From the IMG/VR virus record IMGVR_UViG_3300020029_000023, positions 1 through 5,957 of that record: a stretch of DNA of 5,957 nucleotides. One strand, given 5' to 3'. Below, one piece after another: positions 122-5,957 of this stretch (its first letter is position 1; each line of letters starts with the position of its first letter). The stretch comes from a virus. A program made the position numbers and the translations under genes. The notes below the pieces were generated by a model. It searched no databases, was not told where the DNA came from, and saw only the letters and a program-made list of their open reading frames with translations.

Positions 122-148
122 AATCCTACCAGTTCTGAAGAAAAATAG
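1..148 (+). CDS. 3' portion of the same junction-spanning ORF. Bases 1..121 duplicate 5837..5957. Codons are in phase from position 2, and the stop TAG is at 146..148.
   Basis: The frame continues from 5955..5957 (TCA, equal to 119..121) into AAT CCT ACC AGT TCT GAA GAA AAA TAG, ending at 148. Confidence 0.6.
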   Translation, partial: RFNPDIDFDPNSFSRMDKFDGLEVGQELIDSQLDRSKPSSNPTSSEEK

Positions 149-178
149 TATACCCTTTACTTGACGATATATGCTACG

Positions 179-256
179 TGCGCGGACCCCTTCTGCGAGA
201 GTTCGTGAATTGCTGAAGGTTATTGGTAACGACTGCCGGAGAGGCCGCGCATTTTT
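179..256 (+). terminator. GC-rich imperfect long hairpin followed by TTTTT. Candidate intrinsic terminator or ssDNA structure after the capsid/scaffold module.
   Basis: tgcgcgg (179..185) is the exact reverse complement of ccgcgca (245..251), and ttttt follows directly at 252..256. Imperfect pairing continues inward (c187-g244, c188-g243, c190-g241, t191-a240, c193-g238). The enclosed span is about 59 nt, so this is not a classic compact terminator. It also overlaps the optional 5' extension of ORF 171..473. Confidence 0.25.
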
Positions 257-281
257 CTATCGTTCTTTAAATCTTACTCTG

Positions 282-473
282 ATGTCTGATACTAAACAAC
301 CTCTTTATAAGTCGAAGGCGTTTTGGACACTCGTCTCGTCTATCGTTGCTGCACTGGCTGCCTTTTTTCTTTCATCGTGTTCGGCTCAAGCTAGACTGCA
401 GCGTAGTGGTGTTCACATCGATACTGTGCGTGTCGATTATATCATTCGTTCTAACAATTTAATTAACACGTAG
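282..473 (+). CDS. Small putative lipoprotein: 63-aa precursor, 31-aa mature part. An alternative upstream ATG at 171 would give 100 aa.
   Basis: From Met at 282 the sequence is MSDTKQPLYKSK (basic n-region), AFWTLVSSIVAALAAFFL (h-region), then L-S-S-C. That lipobox fits [LVI][ASTVI][GAS]C, with the Cys codon tgt at 378..380. The stop TAG at 471..473 lies 1 nt before the VP2 ATG at 475. Starting at 171 would put 37 Arg-rich residues ahead of the signal peptide, which does not fit a Sec/SPII signal, so I prefer 282. Confidence 0.6.
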   Translation: MSDTKQPLYKSKAFWTLVSSIVAALAAFFLSSCSAQARLQRSGVHIDTVRVDYIIRSNNLINT

Positions 474-474
474 T

Positions 475-1728
475 ATGCCTATCCCTGTTGCCGCATCTTT
501 TGGTCAAGCCCTTGGTCAGTCTGCTGCTTCTACCGGCTCTAGCGGCTTGATTAATGGTTTCCTAGGCCAGCTTTTTGGTGGCATGAACGCTCGTCGTCAG
601 TGGCGTTTTCAGCAGAAGCAAATGAAGCTTCAACAGCAGTATGCTTTAGAGCAAATGCAAAAACAGTCAGAGCTCTCTTATGCTAATTGGCAGAAACAGT
701 TTGACTACGAAAACGCTTACAATGACCCTTCGAAGGTTTTCGATCGCTATTTGAAGGCCGGTGTAACACCTGCTGCCGTACTCGGCTCTTCCGGCGTTGG
801 TGTAAATGCCACTATGTCAGGCGGCTCCGCGTCTATGCCTTCTGCCTCTGGCCCTTCTGGTGGCGCTCCTGTTAGTCCTGGCGCCATCTCCCCTGGCGAC
901 CCTACTGCTATCGCGCAGAATATGATTGCACAATCTACGGTTGATCGCAATGTTGCTGCTGCTAATCGAGATGATGCAGAAGCTGCTAATCTTCGAGGCA
1001 ATACTCATACGCAAGAGTGGCGAGAGCGAATGGATAAATTTGAGTTGCAGATTGCTGAGCACCATGTTAAGGATGCTCGTGAGCTTGCTAACCTTCGTGA
1101 GGCGCAGGCTCAAATTGTAGCAATTGATGCTTATTTGTCCAATATTACACAAGGTTATAAGATGACTTCTATTATGGCTATGGCTGGCATCTTGGAGGAG
1201 AAATACCAGAATCTTCGCTTAACGAATGATTGGTTCGAACCTGAAGCCGGTGCGGCGCTCGCCGTCGCTTGGAGTTCTGCCCTCGCTAACGTCGCCTCGG
1301 CTAATGAGTCTGACTCTCGTACAAAACTTAACGCCCAAGAGCTCAAGGATTTGCAAAAGTGGTTCGAGCTCAACTGGGAAAAGGAGGTTCCCGTTCAGAT
1401 ACGTAACGAGAAGGGTGAAGTCGTTGAGACGAAGACAATGAAGGTGGCTGAGACCTTGGCCATACTGAAGACTGCTGCCGCTGAAACTGCTCAGCTCGAA
1501 ACAGGTAACGCTCGTTGGGACTTGCGGAATTCTCGCCTTCGCCTCGGACATGATGTTGTTCGCTCCTTCGCTGCTGCTGCTGGCATTGCCGCTTCTTCCT
1601 ACGTCAGTCGTAAGGCTGGAGGTCCCGCTGGCCCAGAAGGTTACGAGGAAATGAGGGAATTCTACGGCCCTTCAGGTGATCATGTCGGCGGTACTTACGT
1701 TCGCCGGAATTATCTTGGGAGAAACTGA
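475..1728 (+). CDS. Minor capsid / DNA pilot protein (VP2, H-like), 417 aa.
   Basis: The N-terminal region ...RRQWRFQQKQMKLQQQYALEQMQKQSELSYANWQKQFDYENAYNDPSKVFDRYLKAGVTPAAVLG matches, from memory, the conserved Q-rich ...YN.P......R...AG.NP... block of gokusho/alpavirus VP2. It is followed by a Gly/Ser/Pro low-complexity linker and long Ala/Glu-rich, helix-like segments. Size and position are typical. Confidence 0.8.
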   Translation: MPIPVAASFGQALGQSAASTGSSGLINGFLGQLFGGMNARRQWRFQQKQMKLQQQYALEQMQKQSELSYANWQKQFDYENAYNDPSKVFDRYLKAGVTPAAVLGSSGVGVNATMSGGSASMPSASGPSGGAPVSPGAISPGDPTAIAQNMIAQSTVDRNVAAANRDDAEAANLRGNTHTQEWRERMDKFELQIAEHHVKDARELANLREAQAQIVAIDAYLSNITQGYKMTSIMAMAGILEEKYQNLRLTNDWFEPEAGAALAVAWSSALANVASANESDSRTKLNAQELKDLQKWFELNWEKEVPVQIRNEKGEVVETKTMKVAETLAILKTAAAETAQLETGNARWDLRNSRLRLGHDVVRSFAAAAGIAASSYVSRKAGGPAGPEGYEEMREFYGPSGDHVGGTYVRRNYLGRN

Positions 1729-1739
1729 ACAACTTATTC

Positions 1740-1754
1740 GACCTTTTGACCTTT
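1740..1754 (+). repeat. Tandem direct repeat GACCTTT-t-GACCTTT in the VP2/ORF1809 intergenic spacer.
   Basis: GACCTTT is read directly at 1740..1746 and again at 1748..1754. It is short and could arise by chance. Confidence 0.4.
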
Positions 1755-1782
1755 ACATCTCTCTTTCCGTGTTGTATATTTG
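1745..1782 (+). promoter_or_regulatory. Candidate Bacteroidota-type promoter (TTTG ... TAnnTTTG) upstream of ORF 1809.
   Basis: TATATTTG at 1775..1782 fits the Bacteroides -7 consensus TAnnTTTG and ends 26 nt before the ATG at 1809. A TTTG sits at 1745..1748, but the 26-nt spacing is longer than the roughly 19-21 nt I recall for the -33/-7 pair. It lies in an 80-nt non-coding gap. Confidence 0.3.
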
Positions 1783-1808
1783 TACTGTAAACCAATAACC
1801 ATACTACC

Positions 1809-2129
1809 ATGAAAAAGTCTAGCAAGAGTGTTAGAACTGACGATTTGATGATCGACGTTGTAGAGTACGCATTCACTGAGTGGCTCGTTCGTCGAGGAAT
1901 ATTTTCCGCCTTTAAGGCGAATTACGAGCACGCTTTCGCACCCTACGAGAGTTTTCGTGATCACCTGCGTTCTCGCATTCGACACTCTCTTTACGGTTTC
2001 GGTTTCAGACTTACTCACCTTGTGTCCTCCGCGTTTTTGTTCACTTCGACGCCCGAAGGTCCTAAGTTTTGGTGTAAGCAGTCTGCTGCCTGGGCGCGTT
2101 TTTGCTCTGAATTTCAAGTAAAATTTTAA
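1809..2129 (+). CDS. Hypothetical protein, 106 aa (ORFan).
   Basis: ATG-initiated ORF on the same strand as all other genes. It fills the gap between VP2 and the next ORF, and its T-rich third codon positions match the recognised genes. I recognise no motif. Confidence 0.55.
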   Translation: MKKSSKSVRTDDLMIDVVEYAFTEWLVRRGIFSAFKANYEHAFAPYESFRDHLRSRIRHSLYGFGFRLTHLVSSAFLFTSTPEGPKFWCKQSAAWARFCSEFQVKF

Positions 2130-2140
2130 ATCACATTATT

Positions 2141-2464
2141 ATGACACAGATTCATGTTGTTGTCCGGCGAGTTAATCCGGCTCTCAAGGTTGATTTCGCC
2201 CAGATAGGTCGTTTTAAAGACGGCCAGTTTGATCCACTCCCTCTTAGCGCTATTGCGAACACTCCTGTTGCGCGTTTCTTGGAGAATTCGGATATCAGCG
2301 ATTCACCCTACGTCAACCACTCGAAAATAGCAGATATTATTGCTGCCTGTGAAAGCCTTCCTGGTTTTAGCATCGAGTTTTTTGATAATACAATAGTTCT
2401 TATGTTTGATTTTGATCTCAACTACAATGAAAGCGCGACGAAAGAAGAAGGGAAAGGGAACTAA
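2141..2464 (+). CDS. Hypothetical protein, 107 aa, with an acidic C-terminus (ORFan).
   Basis: The ATG is 11 nt after the preceding stop, on the same strand and with the same codon style. It shares an in-frame 17/18-nt segment (2406..2423, encoding DFDLN) with the junction-spanning acidic ORF (18..35, encoding DFDPN). Confidence 0.6.
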   Translation: MTQIHVVVRRVNPALKVDFAQIGRFKDGQFDPLPLSAIANTPVARFLENSDISDSPYVNHSKIADIIAACESLPGFSIEFFDNTIVLMFDFDLNYNESATKEEGKGN

Positions 2465-2507
2465 AGTTGTGACCCGCCCGCTTGGTGGTAGAGTTCTTTA
2501 ACTACTT

Positions 2508-2572
2508 GAACCCCAGGGGACAACCGAAGGTTGTGGCCACCGCGAAGCGGTAAGGTACCCCCCTGCGGGTTC
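2508..2572 (+). other. Compound stem-loop (three-way junction) with two C(GAA)G triloop hairpins. Candidate ssDNA complementary-strand origin, or an RNA structure/terminator.
   Basis: Outer stem: gaaccccagggg (2508..2519) pairs with cccctg(c)gggttc (2560..2572), 12 bp with C2566 bulged.
Hairpin A: caacc (2521..2525) pairs with ggttg (2529..2533), loop gaa.
Hairpin B: accgc (2539..2543) pairs with gcggt (2547..2551), loop gaa. It extends through cc/gg (2537-38 with 2554-55) and gg/cc (2535-36 with 2558-59), leaving two 2-nt bulges.
GCGAAGC lies at 2542..2548. The junction strands are only 0-1 nt long. Confidence 0.65.
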
Positions 2573-2601
2573 TTCCTTTTAACCCGTATATACCTTTTTT
2601 T
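2566..2601 (+). terminator. Alternative hairpin plus T7 tract. It excludes the outer stem of the 2508..2572 fold and is a weak intrinsic-terminator candidate.
   Basis: cgggtt (2566..2571) pairs with aacccg (2581..2586) around the 9-nt loop cttcctttt. A T7 run at 2595..2601 begins 8 nt after the stem, which is not canonical spacing. The hairpin reuses the 3' strand of the outer stem, so the two folds compete. Confidence 0.25.
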
Positions 2602-2802
2602 ATGGATTATTTCGATTTCCGCCCTCGGTTTTCGCCTACCGTTGATAGTATTCCTTATCGTTATTCTATTGGCGCATATCGCGGCAAAAGGCGCGTTGTT
2701 ATTGCCTGGTTTTCTGACGAGTGTTTCGCACATGACTACCTTGTCCGCTGTCGCCGCGATAATCCTGATATTAAATTTGATTGTCTTCGAAGCCTACTGT
2801 AA
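2602..2802 (+). CDS. Hypothetical small protein, 66 aa, apparently translationally coupled to the Rep gene.
   Basis: ATG at 2602. The stop TAA at 2800..2802 overlaps the Rep ATG at 2802..2804, forming TAATG. Third codon positions are T-rich as in the recognised genes. The competing 100-aa ORF 2531..2833 looks like the hydrophobic +1-frame shadow of this ORF. Confidence 0.55.
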   Translation: MDYFDFRPRFSPTVDSIPYRYSIGAYRGKRRVVIAWFSDECFAHDYLVRCRRDNPDIKFDCLRSLL

Positions 2803-3872
2803 TGCCTTGTTCGTCGCCCATATGGATACGTAACCGTCGTTATTTTGACAAGAAGAACCCCTGTCGTAACGGCTCCGATGTCGCTAAGTCCGCTCTGGCT
2901 CTCCGCCCCTGGGATATCGCTCGTCAGTGGCTTATGGTCCCGTGTGGAAAGTGCGAAGACTGTCTTCGTCGCCAGCGCAACGATTGGTTCGTCCGGCTCG
3001 AGCGTGAGCTTGCCCGTTGTAAGGCTAATGGCTCGCAGGCTATTTTTGTTACGATAACGATTGCTCCGAAGCATTATAACGAAGCCTTGCTTGATCCGTC
3101 CTGGTTTATTCGGAAATTTAACGAACGCCTACGCCACAAGCTTGGCCATTCGTTTAAACACGCTTTTTTCCAGGAGTTTGGCACCCATCCAGAAACAGGA
3201 AACGAGCCTCGATTGCATTTTCACGGCTTTTTGTTTGGCACAAACGTTCTCTATAACACGATTCGTTCTGCGGTTCGAGACCTTGGTTTCGTTTGGCTAA
3301 CAAAAGCAACTCACAAGCGTGCTCGTTACTGCGTTAAATATGTTACTAAACAAATTCAGTTTAACCCCGAAGAGATTTCGGATAAATATGTTACCGTAGA
3401 TGGAAAACCTACAGCTTTGTCTCGCCTCCTCCAACATCGGCGTTATACGCGCAAGTTTATATCTGCTGGCGTCGGCGATTTTCTTGGTTACATGCCTCGC
3501 CCTTCTTCTCGCGTTTCGTCGTGGTCTTATTTTGATCCTGAGAAACGTATCAATTATAATTACTCGATTCCTCGATACTATCTTAAATATCTTAAATCGG
3601 AAGACGACGTTGTTCGCTCGATTGCCGCCGCTGATGCTTATTCACGTTTTAGCAAGTCTCCTCTGGTTAAGCGTATTGTTTCTTTGTGTGTTGAGCGGTT
3701 CAATCTCAATTCCTCCGTATCCCGTAGAGCGTCTTATACGTGGGAACAGCGACAAATAATGCGTTTTTCCGCCTCTTCCCGGAAAATGCCTGATCTTGAT
3801 CCTCCAACCTGGTTGAATTTGGATATTCTTCAGTTTTGGAGAGATCACTATAAACTTCAACTAATTATTTAA
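2802..3872 (+). CDS. Rolling-circle replication initiation protein (VP4, phiX A-like HUH endonuclease), 356 aa from the ATG at 2802. The ORF track extends it to a TTG at 2781.
   Basis: The N-terminus MPCSSPIWIRNRRYF and PCGKCEDCLRRQRNDWF are typical of VP4. Motif 1 is IFVTITI. The HUH motif is RLHFHGFLF, with the first His codon at 3216..3218. The double-tyrosine motif YCVKYVTK (Tyr codons 3327..3329 and 3339..3341) has the same Y-x-x-K-Y-x-x-K spacing as the catalytic tyrosines of phiX174 protein A. Confidence 0.9.
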   Translation: MPCSSPIWIRNRRYFDKKNPCRNGSDVAKSALALRPWDIARQWLMVPCGKCEDCLRRQRNDWFVRLERELARCKANGSQAIFVTITIAPKHYNEALLDPSWFIRKFNERLRHKLGHSFKHAFFQEFGTHPETGNEPRLHFHGFLFGTNVLYNTIRSAVRDLGFVWLTKATHKRARYCVKYVTKQIQFNPEEISDKYVTVDGKPTALSRLLQHRRYTRKFISAGVGDFLGYMPRPSSRVSSWSYFDPEKRINYNYSIPRYYLKYLKSEDDVVRSIAAADAYSRFSKSPLVKRIVSLCVERFNLNSSVSRRASYTWEQRQIMRFSASSRKMPDLDPPTWLNLDILQFWRDHYKLQLII

Positions 3873-3875
3873 TTT

Positions 3876-5675
3876 ATGGGAAAACAACCTTTTATTTCGC
3901 ACTCCGTCAACGGCTACTCTCGCTACGATGTCCCTGAGAGTAAAGCTTTTACGTGTACACCGGGTATTTTGTACCCAGTGAGAATCGATTTTATTAATGC
4001 TCGAGATCGTGTGTCTATCGAGCAAGGTATCGATGTTCGCAGCAATCCTCTCGCTGTCCCAACATTCAACCCCTATACTGTTCGACTTCATCGTTTTTGG
4101 GTACCGCTCCAGCTGTACCACCCTGAGATGAGGACGAATAGCAGTAAGTTCGATATGAACAATTTGAGCCTTAATTGGATTGCTTCCTGTCAGGCTCAAG
4201 CTGGTGGTCTGAATACTGATTTTTTCGGTGCAGCTTATACTAATTCGTTGATGTCTTGGTTGCGTATCGCTAATAAGTACACTACTGGTATACCCAGCGT
4301 CCCTTCTTCCGTGGCTCTTCCTGCTGATTCTTCTATAGATCGTTGGAGTAACGCGGATTCGTATCTAGCTTATTGGGATATCGTCCGCAACTACTATAGC
4401 TATTCGCAGTGGGGACTTTACTCTTTCGCTTGGCCTATGGCTAATAAACTTGTTTATTCTGGTTCTAGTTATTCTCTCAATTCCAAAAATTCTGGAGACT
4501 CTCGCTTTTTTACGCAGTGTTTTGGTAATCTCGAGTTCCTTGATTCTTACTTTGAGAGTCAGTTTTATCCGTCATCCATACCTTCTTCGAATAATACTTT
4601 TAATCGTGGTAATTTGTTCACGCAGATAATTCGCTCTGATCTGGATAATGATGCTTTTTCTACTGATGGTTTTCCTGTTTCTTCGACCTTCCCGTCTACC
4701 TCGCTTTGCGGTTCAACCGGTATTCTTTCCCAGACTTTAACTACCACTTCTTCTACGGCCAATTCTTCTATTGCCTACTTCGTTACTGCGCATCCTATGG
4801 CTGTATGTCCTTCGAATCCTGATCGTTTTAGTCGCCTTATTCCCACTGGCACTAATTCTGCTGTATCTATGACGGGCGTGTCTACTATTCCTCAGTTGGC
4901 TATTGCTTCTCGTCTCCAGGAGTACAAGGACTTGCTTGGCGCTGGCGGTAGTCGTTATAGTGATTGGTTGGAAACGTTTTTTGCTTCCAAAATTGAGCAT
5001 GTTGATCGTCCAAAACTCCTTTTCAGTGCCTCGCAGACTGTTAATGTGCAGATTATTATGAATCAAGCTGGGGATAATAATTTTTCTGGTAATCAGCCTC
5101 TTGGACAACAAGGTGGTTCTATTGCTTTCAACGATCGTTTAGGTCGTCGCCAGTCTTATTACTTTCGCGAGCCTGGTTATATGATTGATATGTTGAGTAT
5201 TCGCCCTGTTTATTACTGGTCTTTTATTAAGCCAGACTATCTCAGCTATACGGGTCCTGATTACTTTAACCCCATTTATAACGATATTGGATATCAAGAC
5301 GTTCCTGCCTTTCGTCTTGCTTTTAACGGTAATCCTGGGACTTCATTTGCGACCGAACCTTGTTTTAACGAGTTTCGTTCTTCTTACGATGAGGTACTAG
5401 GTCAGCTCCAGGCTTATAGTAGGCCGGAGGCTGAAGGTGGGTCTGGAATTCCCCTCTACTCTTATTGGATTCAGCAGCGCACTGTTTATACTTATAGTGG
5501 AACCGGTACTCTTCCCGAGGCTAGTTATTATCCCCTTCTTTTCGTTGATTTGGCTCAAGTTAATTCTCCTTTTAAGTCGAACGTCGAGGATAATTTTTTT
5601 GTGAATATGTCTTATGCTGTCCAGAAGAAGAACCTCGTTAATAAAACTTTTGCAACTCGTTTGTCTAATCGTTAA
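3876..5675 (+). CDS. Major capsid protein (VP1, F-like jelly-roll), 599 aa.
   Basis: This is the largest ORF. The blocks TPGILYPV, NPYTVRLHRFWVPLQLY, AYWDIVRNYY, RLQEYKDLLGAGGSRYSDWLETFFA and DRPKLLF match the conserved pattern I know from gokusho/alpavirus VP1. A long Ser/Thr-rich insertion sits between the AYWDIVRNYY and PSNPDRFSR blocks, where VP1 surface loops vary. Confidence 0.92.
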   Translation: MGKQPFISHSVNGYSRYDVPESKAFTCTPGILYPVRIDFINARDRVSIEQGIDVRSNPLAVPTFNPYTVRLHRFWVPLQLYHPEMRTNSSKFDMNNLSLNWIASCQAQAGGLNTDFFGAAYTNSLMSWLRIANKYTTGIPSVPSSVALPADSSIDRWSNADSYLAYWDIVRNYYSYSQWGLYSFAWPMANKLVYSGSSYSLNSKNSGDSRFFTQCFGNLEFLDSYFESQFYPSSIPSSNNTFNRGNLFTQIIRSDLDNDAFSTDGFPVSSTFPSTSLCGSTGILSQTLTTTSSTANSSIAYFVTAHPMAVCPSNPDRFSRLIPTGTNSAVSMTGVSTIPQLAIASRLQEYKDLLGAGGSRYSDWLETFFASKIEHVDRPKLLFSASQTVNVQIIMNQAGDNNFSGNQPLGQQGGSIAFNDRLGRRQSYYFREPGYMIDMLSIRPVYYWSFIKPDYLSYTGPDYFNPIYNDIGYQDVPAFRLAFNGNPGTSFATEPCFNEFRSSYDEVLGQLQAYSRPEAEGGSGIPLYSYWIQQRTVYTYSGTGTLPEASYYPLLFVDLAQVNSPFKSNVEDNFFVNMSYAVQKKNLVNKTFATRLSNR

Positions 5676-5687
5676 TATGTTGATTTT

Positions 5688-5957
5688 ATGGCACTTGATT
5701 GGTTACTTGAAGATGCTCCCGCTTATGTTTCTCGCGGTCAGCGTATACTTTCGGTTCTTGATGGTTCTGGTTCCGTCGACGTTCTTCCTGGTCGCCCGGA
5801 TGTAGTAGTAGAACCTTCTGACTTCGATAAGGGTGAAAGATTTAACCCCGATATTGATTTTGATCCCAACTCTTTCTCTCGTATGGATAAGTTTGACGGT
5901 CTCGAGGTTGGTCAGGAACTTATTGATTCACAGCTTGATAGGTCAAAACCCTCGTCA
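5688..5957 (+). CDS. Acidic 98-aa protein that wraps the circular junction; possible internal scaffolding protein (VP3-like). The window cuts off its 3' end. The full ORF is 5688..5836 joined to 1..148.
   Basis: ATG at 5688, 12 nt after the VP1 stop, with an in-frame TAA at 5673..5675 upstream. Hand translation gives MALDWLLEDAPAYVSRGQRILSVLDGSGSVDVLPGRPDVVVEPSDFDKGERFNPDIDFDPNSFSRMDKFDGLEVGQELIDSQLDRSKPSSNPTSSEEK*. There are 21 acidic and 10 basic residues. The position directly after the capsid gene and the small acidic character fit a scaffolding role. The functional call is inference only. The six-frame ORF track missed this ORF because it runs off the window end. Confidence 0.6.
   Translation, partial: MALDWLLEDAPAYVSRGQRILSVLDGSGSVDVLPGRPDVVVEPSDFDKGERFNPDIDFDPNSFSRMDKFDGLEVGQELIDSQLDRSKPSS
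5837..5957. repeat. Terminal direct repeat, copy 2. Assembly overlap of a circular genome, identical to 1..121.
   Basis: Same comparison as copy 1. The non-redundant genome is 1..5836. Confidence 0.97.

What the first reader, a model, noticed from the sequence alone, without database searches (positions are those of the whole stretch)
282..473. Tiny lipoprotein gene between the capsid module and VP2: candidate lysis or superinfection-exclusion factor
The ORF has a textbook SPII signal. It has a K-rich n-region, an 18-residue hydrophobic core and the lipobox LSSC, with Cys at codon 33 (378..380). The mature peptide is only 31 aa (CSAQARLQRSGVHIDTVRVDYIIRSNNLINT). The ORF's stop codon (TAG, 471..473) lies 1 nt before the VP2 start, so it is probably co-expressed with structural genes.

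Lipoproteins are not part of the canonical microvirus gene set (capsid, pilot, scaffold, Rep). Outside the phiX174 group, which has the E membrane protein, microvirus lysis functions are to my knowledge largely unassigned.

Small phage lipoproteins have two precedents:
- Receptor-masking exclusion factors such as T5 Llp.
- Outer-membrane spanin subunits such as Rz1.

Either role, or an E-like single-gene lysis role using the membrane anchor, would be notable in a 5.8-kb genome. There is no acidic stretch after the Cys, so a Bacteroidota surface-export signal seems absent.
Basis: partly seen in the sequence, partly recalled or inferred. Interest (0 to 1): 0.62.

Follow-up and report, generated by a model that had tools for sequence, protein, structure and literature searches.

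The report
Conserved tiny lipoprotein gene, gut microvirus
This 5.8-kb gut ssDNA phage of Alistipes bacteria carries a real, strongly conserved 63-codon gene for a lipid-anchored 31-residue peptide, a testable but unproven candidate for how these phages open or seal the host envelope.

Summary
Window 282-473 is a real gene for a 63-aa lipoprotein precursor: K-rich N-terminus, hydrophobic core, lipobox LSSC, Cys33, a 31-aa basic mature peptide, and a stop 1 nt before the VP2 ATG. The Cys is invariant in 92/92 homologous loci. dN/dS is about 0.09 with synonymous sites near saturation. The 100-aa form from ATG171 is not real.

- The gene is in all 23 GenBank members of microvirus 'Family 18' (predicted host Alistipes) that I could check.
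- It is in all 20 nearest capsid relatives.
- It also occurs, at other genome positions, in very distant microviruses and in Alistipes prophages. There it stays 52-76% identical while capsid and Rep are only 24-32% identical.
- The signal peptide is the most conserved part. The mature peptide comes in swappable types.
- It matches no known family (colicin lysis, Rz1, entericidin, phiX E).

Function is inferred only. My best guess is a colicin-lysis-protein-like egress factor (about 0.4). Superinfection exclusion is the main rival (about 0.3). A second conserved membrane-protein gene, overprinted in Rep (3400-3759), competes for the lysis role.

Earlier follow-ups in this scan reached similar conclusions on sister genomes.

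The parts
282..473 (+). Gene for the 63-aa lipoprotein precursor (stop included)
   Evidence: ORF. There are 408 close homologue clusters. dN/dS is about 0.09. The start is supported in 96/97 loci.
282..377 (+). Signal peptide, codons 1-32 (n-region K5/K10/K12, h-region FWTLVSSIVAALAAFFL). It is the most conserved part of the family.
   Evidence: Invariant S11, F14, W15, L17, A24, A27, F28 and F29 across sequence types. Column conservation is 80-99% over 58 representatives of 50% clusters. AlphaFold helix with pLDDT about 88. It resembles the lipoprotein signal peptides of the Rikenellaceae host.
369..380 (+). Lipobox L-S-S-C. Cys33 (378-380) is the predicted lipidation and cleavage site.
   Evidence: Sequence. 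Cys is present in 92/92 loci. Lipobox statistics over 348 members are.
378..470 (+). Mature 31-aa basic lipopeptide ('type A', core motif GVHIDTVRVDYIIRS)
   Evidence: dN/dS is 0.095 and pI is 9.5. No acidic export signal follows the Cys. The AlphaFold model is not confident here, with pLDDT below 50 for residues 43-53. Relatives carry alternative mature types on the same signal peptide.
471..477 (+). TAG-T-ATG junction with the pilot gene VP2 (475-1728); possible translational coupling
   Evidence: Sequence. The same 1-nt spacing occurs in most of the 80 related loci. VP2 is identified by PHROG 8689, 'pilot protein'.
171..281 (+). Leader in front of the gene. It is not part of the protein and holds a GC-rich hairpin followed by a T run.
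   Evidence: The frame is interrupted or shifted in 43/97 loci. The DNA fold is -15.8 kcal/mol with z = -1.86.
3400..3759 (+). Overprinted 119-aa two-helix membrane protein gene inside Rep (+1 frame). It is a rival or possible partner for the lysis role, not part of the lipoprotein gene.
   Evidence: It is open with the same start and stop in relatives, and synonymous diversity of Rep drops from about 0.5 to 0.15-0.25 over nt 3340-3730. It is full-length in 73/93 loci, with most of the other matches in loci where the Rep region is only partly held. It is present in both type-A and type-B genomes. AlphaFold gives a helical hairpin with mean pLDDT 80.

Best explanation
Window 282-473 encodes a 63-aa prolipoprotein made in an Alistipes (Rikenellaceae, Bacteroidales) host.

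Shown: it is a real gene under strong purifying selection. It has a conserved lipoprotein-type signal peptide, an invariant lipobox Cys and no surface-export signal.

Inferred from established lipoprotein biogenesis: it is exported by Sec, diacylglyceryl-modified on Cys33 by Lgt and cleaved by signal peptidase II. This leaves a 31-residue basic lipopeptide anchored to a membrane leaflet facing the periplasm.

Inferred and untested function: it acts on the host envelope as an egress (lysis) factor, in the manner of colicin lysis / bacteriocin-release proteins. Those are tiny lipoproteins whose slowly processed precursor, stable signal peptide and mature lipopeptide together damage the envelope. 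The gene sits directly upstream of the pilot gene VP2 and may be translationally coupled to it. Its product would therefore accumulate with the structural proteins. It may work alone or together with the overprinted two-helix membrane protein at 3400-3759. The exceptional conservation of the signal-peptide helix suggests that this helix has a sequence-specific role in the inner membrane beyond targeting.
For: **Gene reality and lipoprotein features**
- Sequence features are verified.
- Cys is invariant in 92/92 loci.
- Position -1 is S/G/A in 339/348 members, and the PROSITE-type core pattern is met in 332/348.
- dN/dS is 0.08 for the signal part and 0.095 for the mature part, with pS 0.63. 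The other frames give values above 1.
- Host Rikenellaceae lipoproteins have look-alike signal peptides such as ...LTALFLSSCSSS.

**Host**
- Relatives are placed in 'Family 18' with predicted host Alistipes (PMC9239249 supplement).
- Homologues lie in microvirus prophages of Alistipes montrealensis and an uncultured Alistipes.
- The family was found in 5 of 301 Rikenellaceae genomes, each next to a microvirus Rep. It was found in 0 of 400 other Bacteroidales genomes sampled.

**Core-gene status, as expected of a lysis function**
- Present in 23/23 Family 18 GenBank records that I could check.
- Present in 20/20 of the nearest VP1 relatives.
- Present in all related IMG/VR loci that cover the site.

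**No other recognisable lysis gene**
- No muralytic or peptidase domain was found in any ORF.
- There is no phiX174 E homologue.

**Layout like colicin lysis proteins**
- The precursor is about 60 aa and the mature lipopeptide about 30 aa.
- The signal peptide is conserved. The BRP signal peptide is stable and functional on its own (van der Wal et al. 1994 and 1995, as listed in the references of PMC5727409).
- The signal peptide is more conserved than the mature part.
Against: - No experiment and no homology links it to lysis. It does not match Lysis_col, Rz1, entericidin or Microvir_lysis.
- A second conserved membrane-protein gene (3400-3759) is at least as E-like or holin-like.
- Other lipoprotein-bearing lineages carry small single-TM ORFs after VP2. 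The lipoprotein is therefore never the only membrane-protein candidate.
- Known single-gene lysis proteins tend to be diverse. This peptide is the most conserved protein of the genome.
- The mature peptide occurs in alternative types on one signal peptide. Such diversity is also typical of specificity or exclusion functions.
- The gene sits in prophages, where a lysis gene must stay silent.
- The AlphaFold model of the mature part is uninformative.
Confidence: 0.4

Rival explanations
1. Superinfection exclusion or receptor masking, working like T5 Llp or the Cor proteins. The periplasm-facing lipopeptide would bind the host receptor or envelope route used by these microviruses, or the incoming pilot tube. 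It would protect infected or lysogenic cells and keep progeny from being wasted on cell debris.
For: - Small phage lipoproteins with this role are established (general knowledge of Llp and Cor).
- The gene is carried by prophages in Alistipes and is the first or second gene next to the host flank.
- The mature peptide comes in alternative types (A, B and others) on a constant signal peptide, as expected for a specificity determinant.
- The family is confined to microviruses of one host group and is shared across unrelated microvirus families.
- The gene is adjacent to the pilot gene.
Against: - It is universal in a probably lytic family, present in 23/23 and 20/20 records. Exclusion genes are usually accessory.
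- Peptide type does not follow capsid type. Type-B genomes are scattered on the VP1 tree; for example L120_B groups with type-A genomes at 100/99 support.
- One peptide type goes with VP2 variants that are only about 54% identical.
- This reading does not explain why the signal peptide is the most conserved part.
- There is no sequence match to any exclusion lipoprotein family. The best is EexN at E = 0.089 in one member.
Confidence: 0.3
2. An accessory of another phage function at the envelope, without lytic or exclusion activity of its own. Examples are a partner or timer of the overprinted two-helix membrane protein (antiholin-like or spanin-like pairing), or a factor that conditions the envelope for assembly or release.
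For: - In Family 18 both genes are always present together.
- In sister lineages the lipoprotein frame runs on into a long extension that ends in a hydrophobic segment and a basic tail. This is reminiscent of a membrane-spanning tether.
Against: - The lipoprotein also occurs in families that have no recognisable homologue of the overprinted gene, so the two are separable modules.
- The open extension could be chance. The probability of it staying open is 2-37% per genome.
- No coiled-coil or type-II partner ORF of the Rz kind was found.
Confidence: 0.15
3. It is not a lipoprotein in vivo. It would be an uncleaved N-in, C-out membrane peptide whose conserved helix inhibits a membrane enzyme, working like phiX174 E on MraY. 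The Cys would then be kept for another reason, such as a disulfide.
For: - The helix is the most conserved element and carries small-residue (AxxxA-like) faces.
- Some type-B members have Glu at -2 (LESC). This fails the classical lipobox pattern.
Against: - The Cys is invariant and a small residue sits at -1 in 97% of members.
- One relative (L102) keeps the lipobox and mature peptide on a different signal peptide.
- The host's own lipoproteins carry the same ...FLSSC ends.
- The only weak family hits are to lipoprotein signal regions.
Confidence: 0.1

Closest known systems
Colicin lysis proteins / bacteriocin release proteins (Pfam PF02402 Lysis_col; e.g. pCloDF13 BRP, ColE-type Cel/Kil)
   Same: - A very small prolipoprotein with a mature lipopeptide of about 30 residues.
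- The signal peptide is itself conserved. In BRP it is stable and functional on its own (references 16-17 of PMC5727409).
- The gene is encoded by a small mobile replicon.
- The presumed role is release of a cargo through the envelope.
   Different: - No sequence relationship: PF02402 gives no match in the window at E <= 10, and Pfam finds no match for 13 family members.
- It is phage-borne in Bacteroidales, not on an enterobacterial Col plasmid.
- There is no SOS-operon context.
- Whether a phospholipase or any envelope damage is involved is untested.
Exclusion lipoproteins of phages (T5 Llp, Cor of phi80/N15/HK022)
   Same: A small phage-encoded lipoprotein with a periplasm-facing mature part. 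The family is host-restricted and is carried by temperate elements too.
   Different: - No sequence match in any library.
- The mature part is only about 31 aa.
- The gene is universal in its virus family.
- Peptide type does not track capsid type.
Outer-membrane spanin subunit Rz1 (PF06085) and unimolecular spanins (T1 gp11)
   Same: A phage lipoprotein with a short mature part that acts, if at all, at the last envelope barrier.
   Different: - No PF06085 match.
- There is no Pro in the mature peptide.
- There is no Rz-type partner gene.
- The window's protein has no C-terminal membrane segment. Only the long forms in sister lineages hint at one.
phiX174 lysis protein E (PF04517)
   Same: A small membrane-targeted protein of a microvirus whose transmembrane helix is the conserved element.
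   Different: - No PF04517 match.
- E has no lipobox.
- E is overprinted in gene D. Here the lipoprotein gene stands alone, and it is the other candidate (3400-3759) that is overprinted.

Membership tests
Bacterial lipoproteins (signal peptidase II substrates) | Positively charged n-region and a hydrophobic h-region before the lipobox | tested here: met
   K5, K10 and K12, then FWTLVSSIVAALAAFFL. The helix has pLDDT about 88.
Bacterial lipoproteins (signal peptidase II substrates) | Lipobox [LVI][ASTVI][GAS]C with the Cys at about position 15-35 | tested here: met
   LSSC with Cys33. The consensus is as given in PMC12462473. The coded PROSITE-type core pattern is met in 332/348 family members.
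Bacterial lipoproteins (signal peptidase II substrates) | Cys and the small -1 residue conserved among homologues | tested here: met
   Cys in 92/92 loci. Position -1 is S/G/A in 339/348 members.
Bacterial lipoproteins (signal peptidase II substrates) | Actual lipid modification and globomycin-sensitive cleavage | not testable with these tools
   This needs labelling and processing experiments. SignalP and LipoP are not available here.
Colicin lysis proteins (PF02402) | Match to the family profile | tested here: not met
   No match in the six-frame window at E <= 10. No Pfam hit for 13 members.
Colicin lysis proteins (PF02402) | Prolipoprotein of about 45-60 aa that gives a lipopeptide of about 30 aa | tested here: met
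   63-aa precursor and 31-aa mature peptide. This is a resemblance, not homology.
Colicin lysis proteins (PF02402) | Causes quasi-lysis or release when expressed | not testable with these tools
   An expression experiment is required.
Rz1 o-spanin (PF06085) | Profile match, a Pro-rich mature part and a partner i-spanin gene | tested here: not met
   No PF06085 match. There is no Pro in the mature peptide. No type-II membrane or coiled-coil partner ORF was found in the ORF and hydropathy scan.
Unimolecular spanin (T1 gp11 type) | N-terminal lipobox plus a C-terminal transmembrane segment in one chain | tested here: not met
   The window's protein ends 31 residues after the Cys. Long forms in other lineages have only an 11-17-residue hydrophobic stretch.
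phiX174 E (PF04517) | Profile match | tested here: not met
   No match in the window at E <= 10.
Entericidin (PF08085) | Profile match | tested here: not met
   No match at E <= 10.
Exclusion lipoproteins (Llp, Cor, Eex types) | Sequence similarity to a described exclusion lipoprotein family | tested here: not met
   Only generic lipoprotein-signal hits were found. EexN gives E = 0.089 in 1 of 13 members. Nothing was found in Pfam or PHROGs. PADLOC gives only weak PDC-M02A hits at E of about 0.005-0.02.
Exclusion lipoproteins (Llp, Cor, Eex types) | Blocks infection by the cognate phage | not testable with these tools
   This needs a cultured phage-host pair.

The most novel reading that the evidence does not exclude
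The 63-codon gene makes two effectors from one precursor. The unusually conserved signal-peptide helix would persist in the inner membrane after cleavage. There it would block a membrane enzyme of envelope synthesis or of lipoprotein processing. The swappable lipopeptide would act at the outer membrane. This would be a complete, minimal lysis system for Bacteroidales microviruses, exchanged horizontally between microvirus families that share a host. In sister lineages it would be extended into a membrane-spanning (spanin-like) form.
Probability: 0.12. Interest if true: 0.85.

Novelty: new variant of a known kind. Interest (0 to 1): 0.6.

Why it matters
Outside the phiX174 group, how microviruses get out of their hosts is largely unassigned, and these phages are among the most abundant in animal guts. 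This gene is a short, universally conserved and easily synthesised candidate that makes the question directly testable in Bacteroidales.

It is also a clear case of one small gene shared at 52-76% identity between microvirus families whose capsids are only about 25-30% identical. A recent survey judged microviral families to exchange genes rarely, if ever (PMC9239249).

The lipoprotein's signal peptide is more conserved than its mature part. This points to a function for the signal peptide itself. If the helix or the lipopeptide hits a specific envelope target, it would mark a weak point of the Bacteroidales envelope.

Tried and rejected
- **100-aa form from ATG171:** rejected. 43/97 loci have a stop within 20 codons upstream of the conserved FW motif, and the 171-281 stretch shows frame shifts.
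- **Alternative-frame ORF 283/346-462:** rejected. dN/dS is above 1.
- **Membership in known families:** no real matches in Pfam, NCBIfam, PHROGs or PADLOC, nor to Lysis_col, Rz1, entericidin or Microvir_lysis. There is no PDB relative.
- **AlphaFold model of the precursor:** only the helix is confident and the mature part is not. I therefore ran no fold search.
- **Mature peptide mimicking a piece of the phage's own proteins:** no similarity found.
- **Linkage of peptide type to capsid type:** none on the VP1 tree.
- **Cellular origin:** no stand-alone copies. Every strong hit in Rikenellaceae lies next to a microvirus Rep.
- **TonB-box or BamA beta-signal mimicry by the DTVRV / YEQVG motifs:** considered only from memory, not testable here, and dropped.
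- **Sigma-70 promoter and terminator scan:** uninformative for a Bacteroidales host.
- **Literature:** no paper in the library discusses a microvirus lipoprotein.

Full report
**What the window is.** The 5957 bases are a complete circular microvirus genome of 5836 nt with a 121-nt terminal overlap. All genes are on the + strand:

| Coordinates | Gene |
|---|---|
| 282-473 | the small ORF under study |
| 475-1728 | VP2 pilot (PHROG 8689) |
| 1809-2129 | unassigned ORF |
| 2141-2464 | unassigned ORF |
| 2802-3872 | Rep (PF23343, PHROG 942) |
| 3876-5675 | VP1 capsid (PF02305, PHROG 514) |
| 5688..148 | 98-aa ORF across the circular junction |

No ORF has a muralytic or peptidase domain, and there is no phiX174 E homologue.

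**Check of the observation.**
- ATG at 282.
- K5, K10 and K12.
- The hydrophobic core FWTLVSSIVAALAAFFL.
- LSSC, with the Cys codon at 378-380.
- A 31-aa mature peptide.
- TAG at 471-473, one T, then the VP2 ATG at 475.

The precursor meets the lipobox consensus (PMC12462473) and the PROSITE-type core pattern that I coded.

**It is a real gene.** A search with the 63-aa protein found 408 clusters. A profile found 721. A profile search of 1.84 billion representatives found 81 clusters at 50% identity, 54 of them at E <= 1e-10.
- In 92 homologous loci the Cys is invariant.
- Pairwise synonymous differences are near saturation (pS 0.63).
- dN/dS is 0.080 for the signal-peptide codons and 0.095 for the mature codons.
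- The two other frames give dN/dS above 1, so there is no hidden overlapping gene.
- Over 348 family members, position -1 is S, G or A in 339. An acidic residue occurs within +2..+6 in only 5, so the Bacteroidota surface-export signal is absent.

The start is ATG282, not ATG171. 96/97 loci keep a Met close to the conserved FW motif. 43/97 have a stop within 20 codons upstream of it, and the 171-281 stretch shows frame shifts between relatives.

Some database records already carry the automatic label 'MAG TPA: lipoprotein [Microviridae sp.]'. No paper in the library discusses such a gene.

**Host.** The nearest GenBank relatives are MG945664, MG945784, MG945456 and others, with VP1 66-87% identical. 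They are listed as 'Family 18' with predicted host Alistipes in the supplement of PMC9239249.

Independent support comes from prophages:
- Homologues of the lipoprotein lie in integrated microvirus prophages in Alistipes montrealensis and an uncultured Alistipes.
- They also lie in two metagenome contigs, between an HTH_3 gene and a ZnuA gene.
- In a sample of 301 Rikenellaceae genomes, 5 have a strong match, each next to a microvirus Rep.
- In 400 other Bacteroidales genomes, none was found at E <= 1e-5.
- The host family's own lipoproteins carry very similar signal peptide ends (...LTALFLSSCSSS...AMFLSACS).

**Distribution among microviruses.** All 23 Family 18 GenBank accessions that I could read from the supplement, and all 20 nearest VP1 relatives, have a family member. 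So do all related IMG/VR loci that cover the site.

It is the most conserved protein of the genome. It stays 85-97% identical where VP2 is only about 54% identical. It stays 52-76% identical in microviruses and prophages whose VP1 and Rep are 24-32% identical.

In those distant lineages the gene sits elsewhere: between VP2 and Rep, directly after VP1, or as the first or second gene of the prophage. PMC9239249 noted that small peptides of about 65 aa link microviral families but assigned them no function. This family is a concrete case.

**Anatomy of the family.** The signal peptide is the most conserved part. Across sequence types, the invariant columns are S11, F14, W15, L17, A24, A27, F28, F29 and C33, plus D47 in the mature part. 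Over 58 cluster representatives the signal-peptide columns are 80-99% conserved, and most mature columns are much less so.

Relatives that lack the 'type A' mature peptide (GVHIDTVRVDYIIRS) carry a 65-aa lipoprotein at the same place before VP2. It has the same signal peptide and a different mature peptide, 'type B' (TTRHYVVQSASSVKSGDTTRTTITYEQVGNFKRP). Intermediate forms (GVHHDTVRYEQVIKHKNY) link the two types.
- One prophage has the type-A peptide on a different signal peptide.
- Another has the usual signal peptide on a type-B-like peptide.
- Peptide type does not follow the capsid tree.
- Both mature types are basic, with pI about 9.5.
- AlphaFold2 models the helix with confidence (pLDDT about 88) but not the mature part (below 50 for residues 43-53).

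**Comparison with known families.** There is no match to any of these:
- Lysis_col
- Rz1
- entericidin
- Microvir_lysis
- any PDB chain

The weak hits in NCBIfam are all to lipoprotein signal regions (YgdI/YgdR, LpoB, EexN, Lpp). PADLOC gives only borderline PDC-M02A hits.

By layout, the nearest known things are the colicin lysis / bacteriocin release proteins. They are tiny prolipoproteins whose signal peptide is stable and active on its own (references 16-17 in PMC5727409). This is a functional analogy, not membership.

**A competitor for the lysis role.** Earlier scan note e1-3466603 mentioned a second membrane-protein gene on a sister genome. I tested this here.

Inside Rep, in the +1 frame, window 3400-3759 encodes a 119-aa very hydrophobic protein.
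- It is open with the same start and stop in relatives.
- Rep's synonymous diversity falls from about 0.5 to 0.15-0.25 exactly over this stretch.
- It is full-length in 73/93 loci, with most of the other matches in loci where the Rep region is only partly held.
- It is present in both type-A and type-B genomes.
- It has no clear counterpart in the distant families that also carry the lipoprotein.
- AlphaFold2 gives a helical hairpin with mean pLDDT 80.
- Other lipoprotein-bearing lineages have small single-TM ORFs after VP2.

The lipoprotein is therefore never the only membrane-protein candidate.

**Weighing the functions.**

For lysis or egress:
- The gene is a core gene of a probably lytic family.
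- There is no other recognisable lysis enzyme.
- The layout is like BRP, including the conserved signal peptide.
- It is placed next to the late structural genes, and may be coupled to VP2.

For exclusion:
- Phage lipoproteins with this role are known.
- The gene is carried by prophages, at the prophage edge.
- The mature peptide types are swappable.
- The family is host-restricted and shared across virus families.

Against exclusion: the gene is universal, there is no linkage to capsid or VP2 type, and the conserved signal peptide goes unexplained. Against lysis: there is a rival overprinted membrane protein, and this peptide is extremely conserved whereas known single-gene lysis proteins are diverse.

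I put lysis/egress at about 0.4, exclusion at about 0.3, an accessory or partner role at about 0.15, and 'not lipidated, E-like helix' at about 0.1.

**Unresolved.** In sister lineages about 33 of 58 cluster representatives are 160-225 aa. In these, the lipoprotein frame has no stop and has a conserved junction (RSRN-IQTA..C). It runs about 90 codons over a real gene in another frame. It ends in a short hydrophobic stretch and a conserved basic tail, RRGGRRGKPRPK.K.IPLGGSHL, just before Rep.

The window has a stand-alone 24-aa ORF at 2427-2501, MKARRKKKGKGTKVVTRPLGGRVL. From memory, it resembles the J/VP8 DNA-binding peptides of other microviruses. The chance that the frame stays open is 2-37% per genome, depending on the null model. 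I cannot say whether the long forms are real fusions.

**Limits.** No signal-peptide predictor is available here. All functional statements are inference.

The scan had already followed up this same gene family on several sister genomes, with similar verdicts. I re-derived the shared points independently. I add the following:
- The signal peptide is more conserved than the mature peptide.
- The alternative mature types and their intermediates.
- The 23/23 and 20/20 counts.
- The restriction to Rikenellaceae among the genomes sampled.
- The test of the overprinted gene.

Noticed in passing
window 3400-3759 (+): Overprinted 119-aa two-helix membrane protein gene inside Rep (+1 frame). It is conserved across Family 18 and depresses Rep's synonymous diversity. 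AlphaFold gives a helical hairpin with pLDDT 80. It matches no Pfam or PHROG family.
   Followed up: yes
window 2427-2501 (+): 24-aa highly basic ORF, MKARRKKKGKGTKVVTRPLGGRVL. From memory, it resembles the J/VP8 DNA-binding peptides of other microviruses. The same tail...RRGGRRGKPRP...LGGSHL, is conserved just before Rep in distant lineages.
   Followed up: partly
L097 7983-8591; L101 1501-2088; L092 4688-5320; proteins P0295-P0341: In sister lineages the lipoprotein frame has no stop. It continues for about 135 codons over a real gene in another frame and ends in the basic tail. About 33 of 58 cluster representatives are such long forms. The chance of the frame staying open is 2-37% per genome.
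   Followed up: partly
window 2602-2802 (+): Probable 66-aa gene whose TGA overlaps the Rep ATG at 2802 (TGATG). It has ordinary protein composition and matches no family.
   Followed up: partly
window 171-281: GC-rich imperfect hairpin (stem 179-185 with 245-251) followed by TTTTT, between the 98-aa ORF and the lipoprotein gene. The DNA fold has z = -1.86. The stretch is conserved as DNA but with frame shifts in relatives, so it is non-coding and perhaps a terminator or origin-type element.
   Followed up: partly
window 52, 1035, 1775, 2401, 2772, 3041 (and 5888): All 7 matches to the Bacteroidota -7 promoter motif TAnnTTTG lie on the + strand. Two sit just upstream of the ORF at 1809 and of Rep at 2802. 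The count itself is not above chance: 7 found against 4.3 expected.
   Followed up: no
L094 about 5050-10900; L095 about 1100-7450: Two related microvirus prophages lie between the same host genes (an HTH_3 regulator and ZnuA) but in opposite orientations. This suggests a symmetric, dif-like integration site.
   Followed up: partly
loci L001-L082 versus the window: The genomes are strongly mosaic. With Rep at 80-93% identity, VP2 falls into two classes (82-88% and 52-58%). VP1 is exchanged independently: L117 and L120 share an identical lipoprotein and near-identical backbone identities but sit apart on the VP1 tree.
   Followed up: partly
L091 4202-4345; L095 1742-1894; L085 4309-4515: In the distant lineages a small conserved ORF (motif ..KSAKYL[IL]IGFG..) immediately precedes and overlaps the start of the lipoprotein gene.
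   Followed up: no
family alignment A3: Weak PADLOC hits to the candidate defence protein PDC-M02A (E of about 0.005-0.02, in up to 5 of 23 members per model). They cover the lipobox and the first part of the mature peptide.
   Followed up: no
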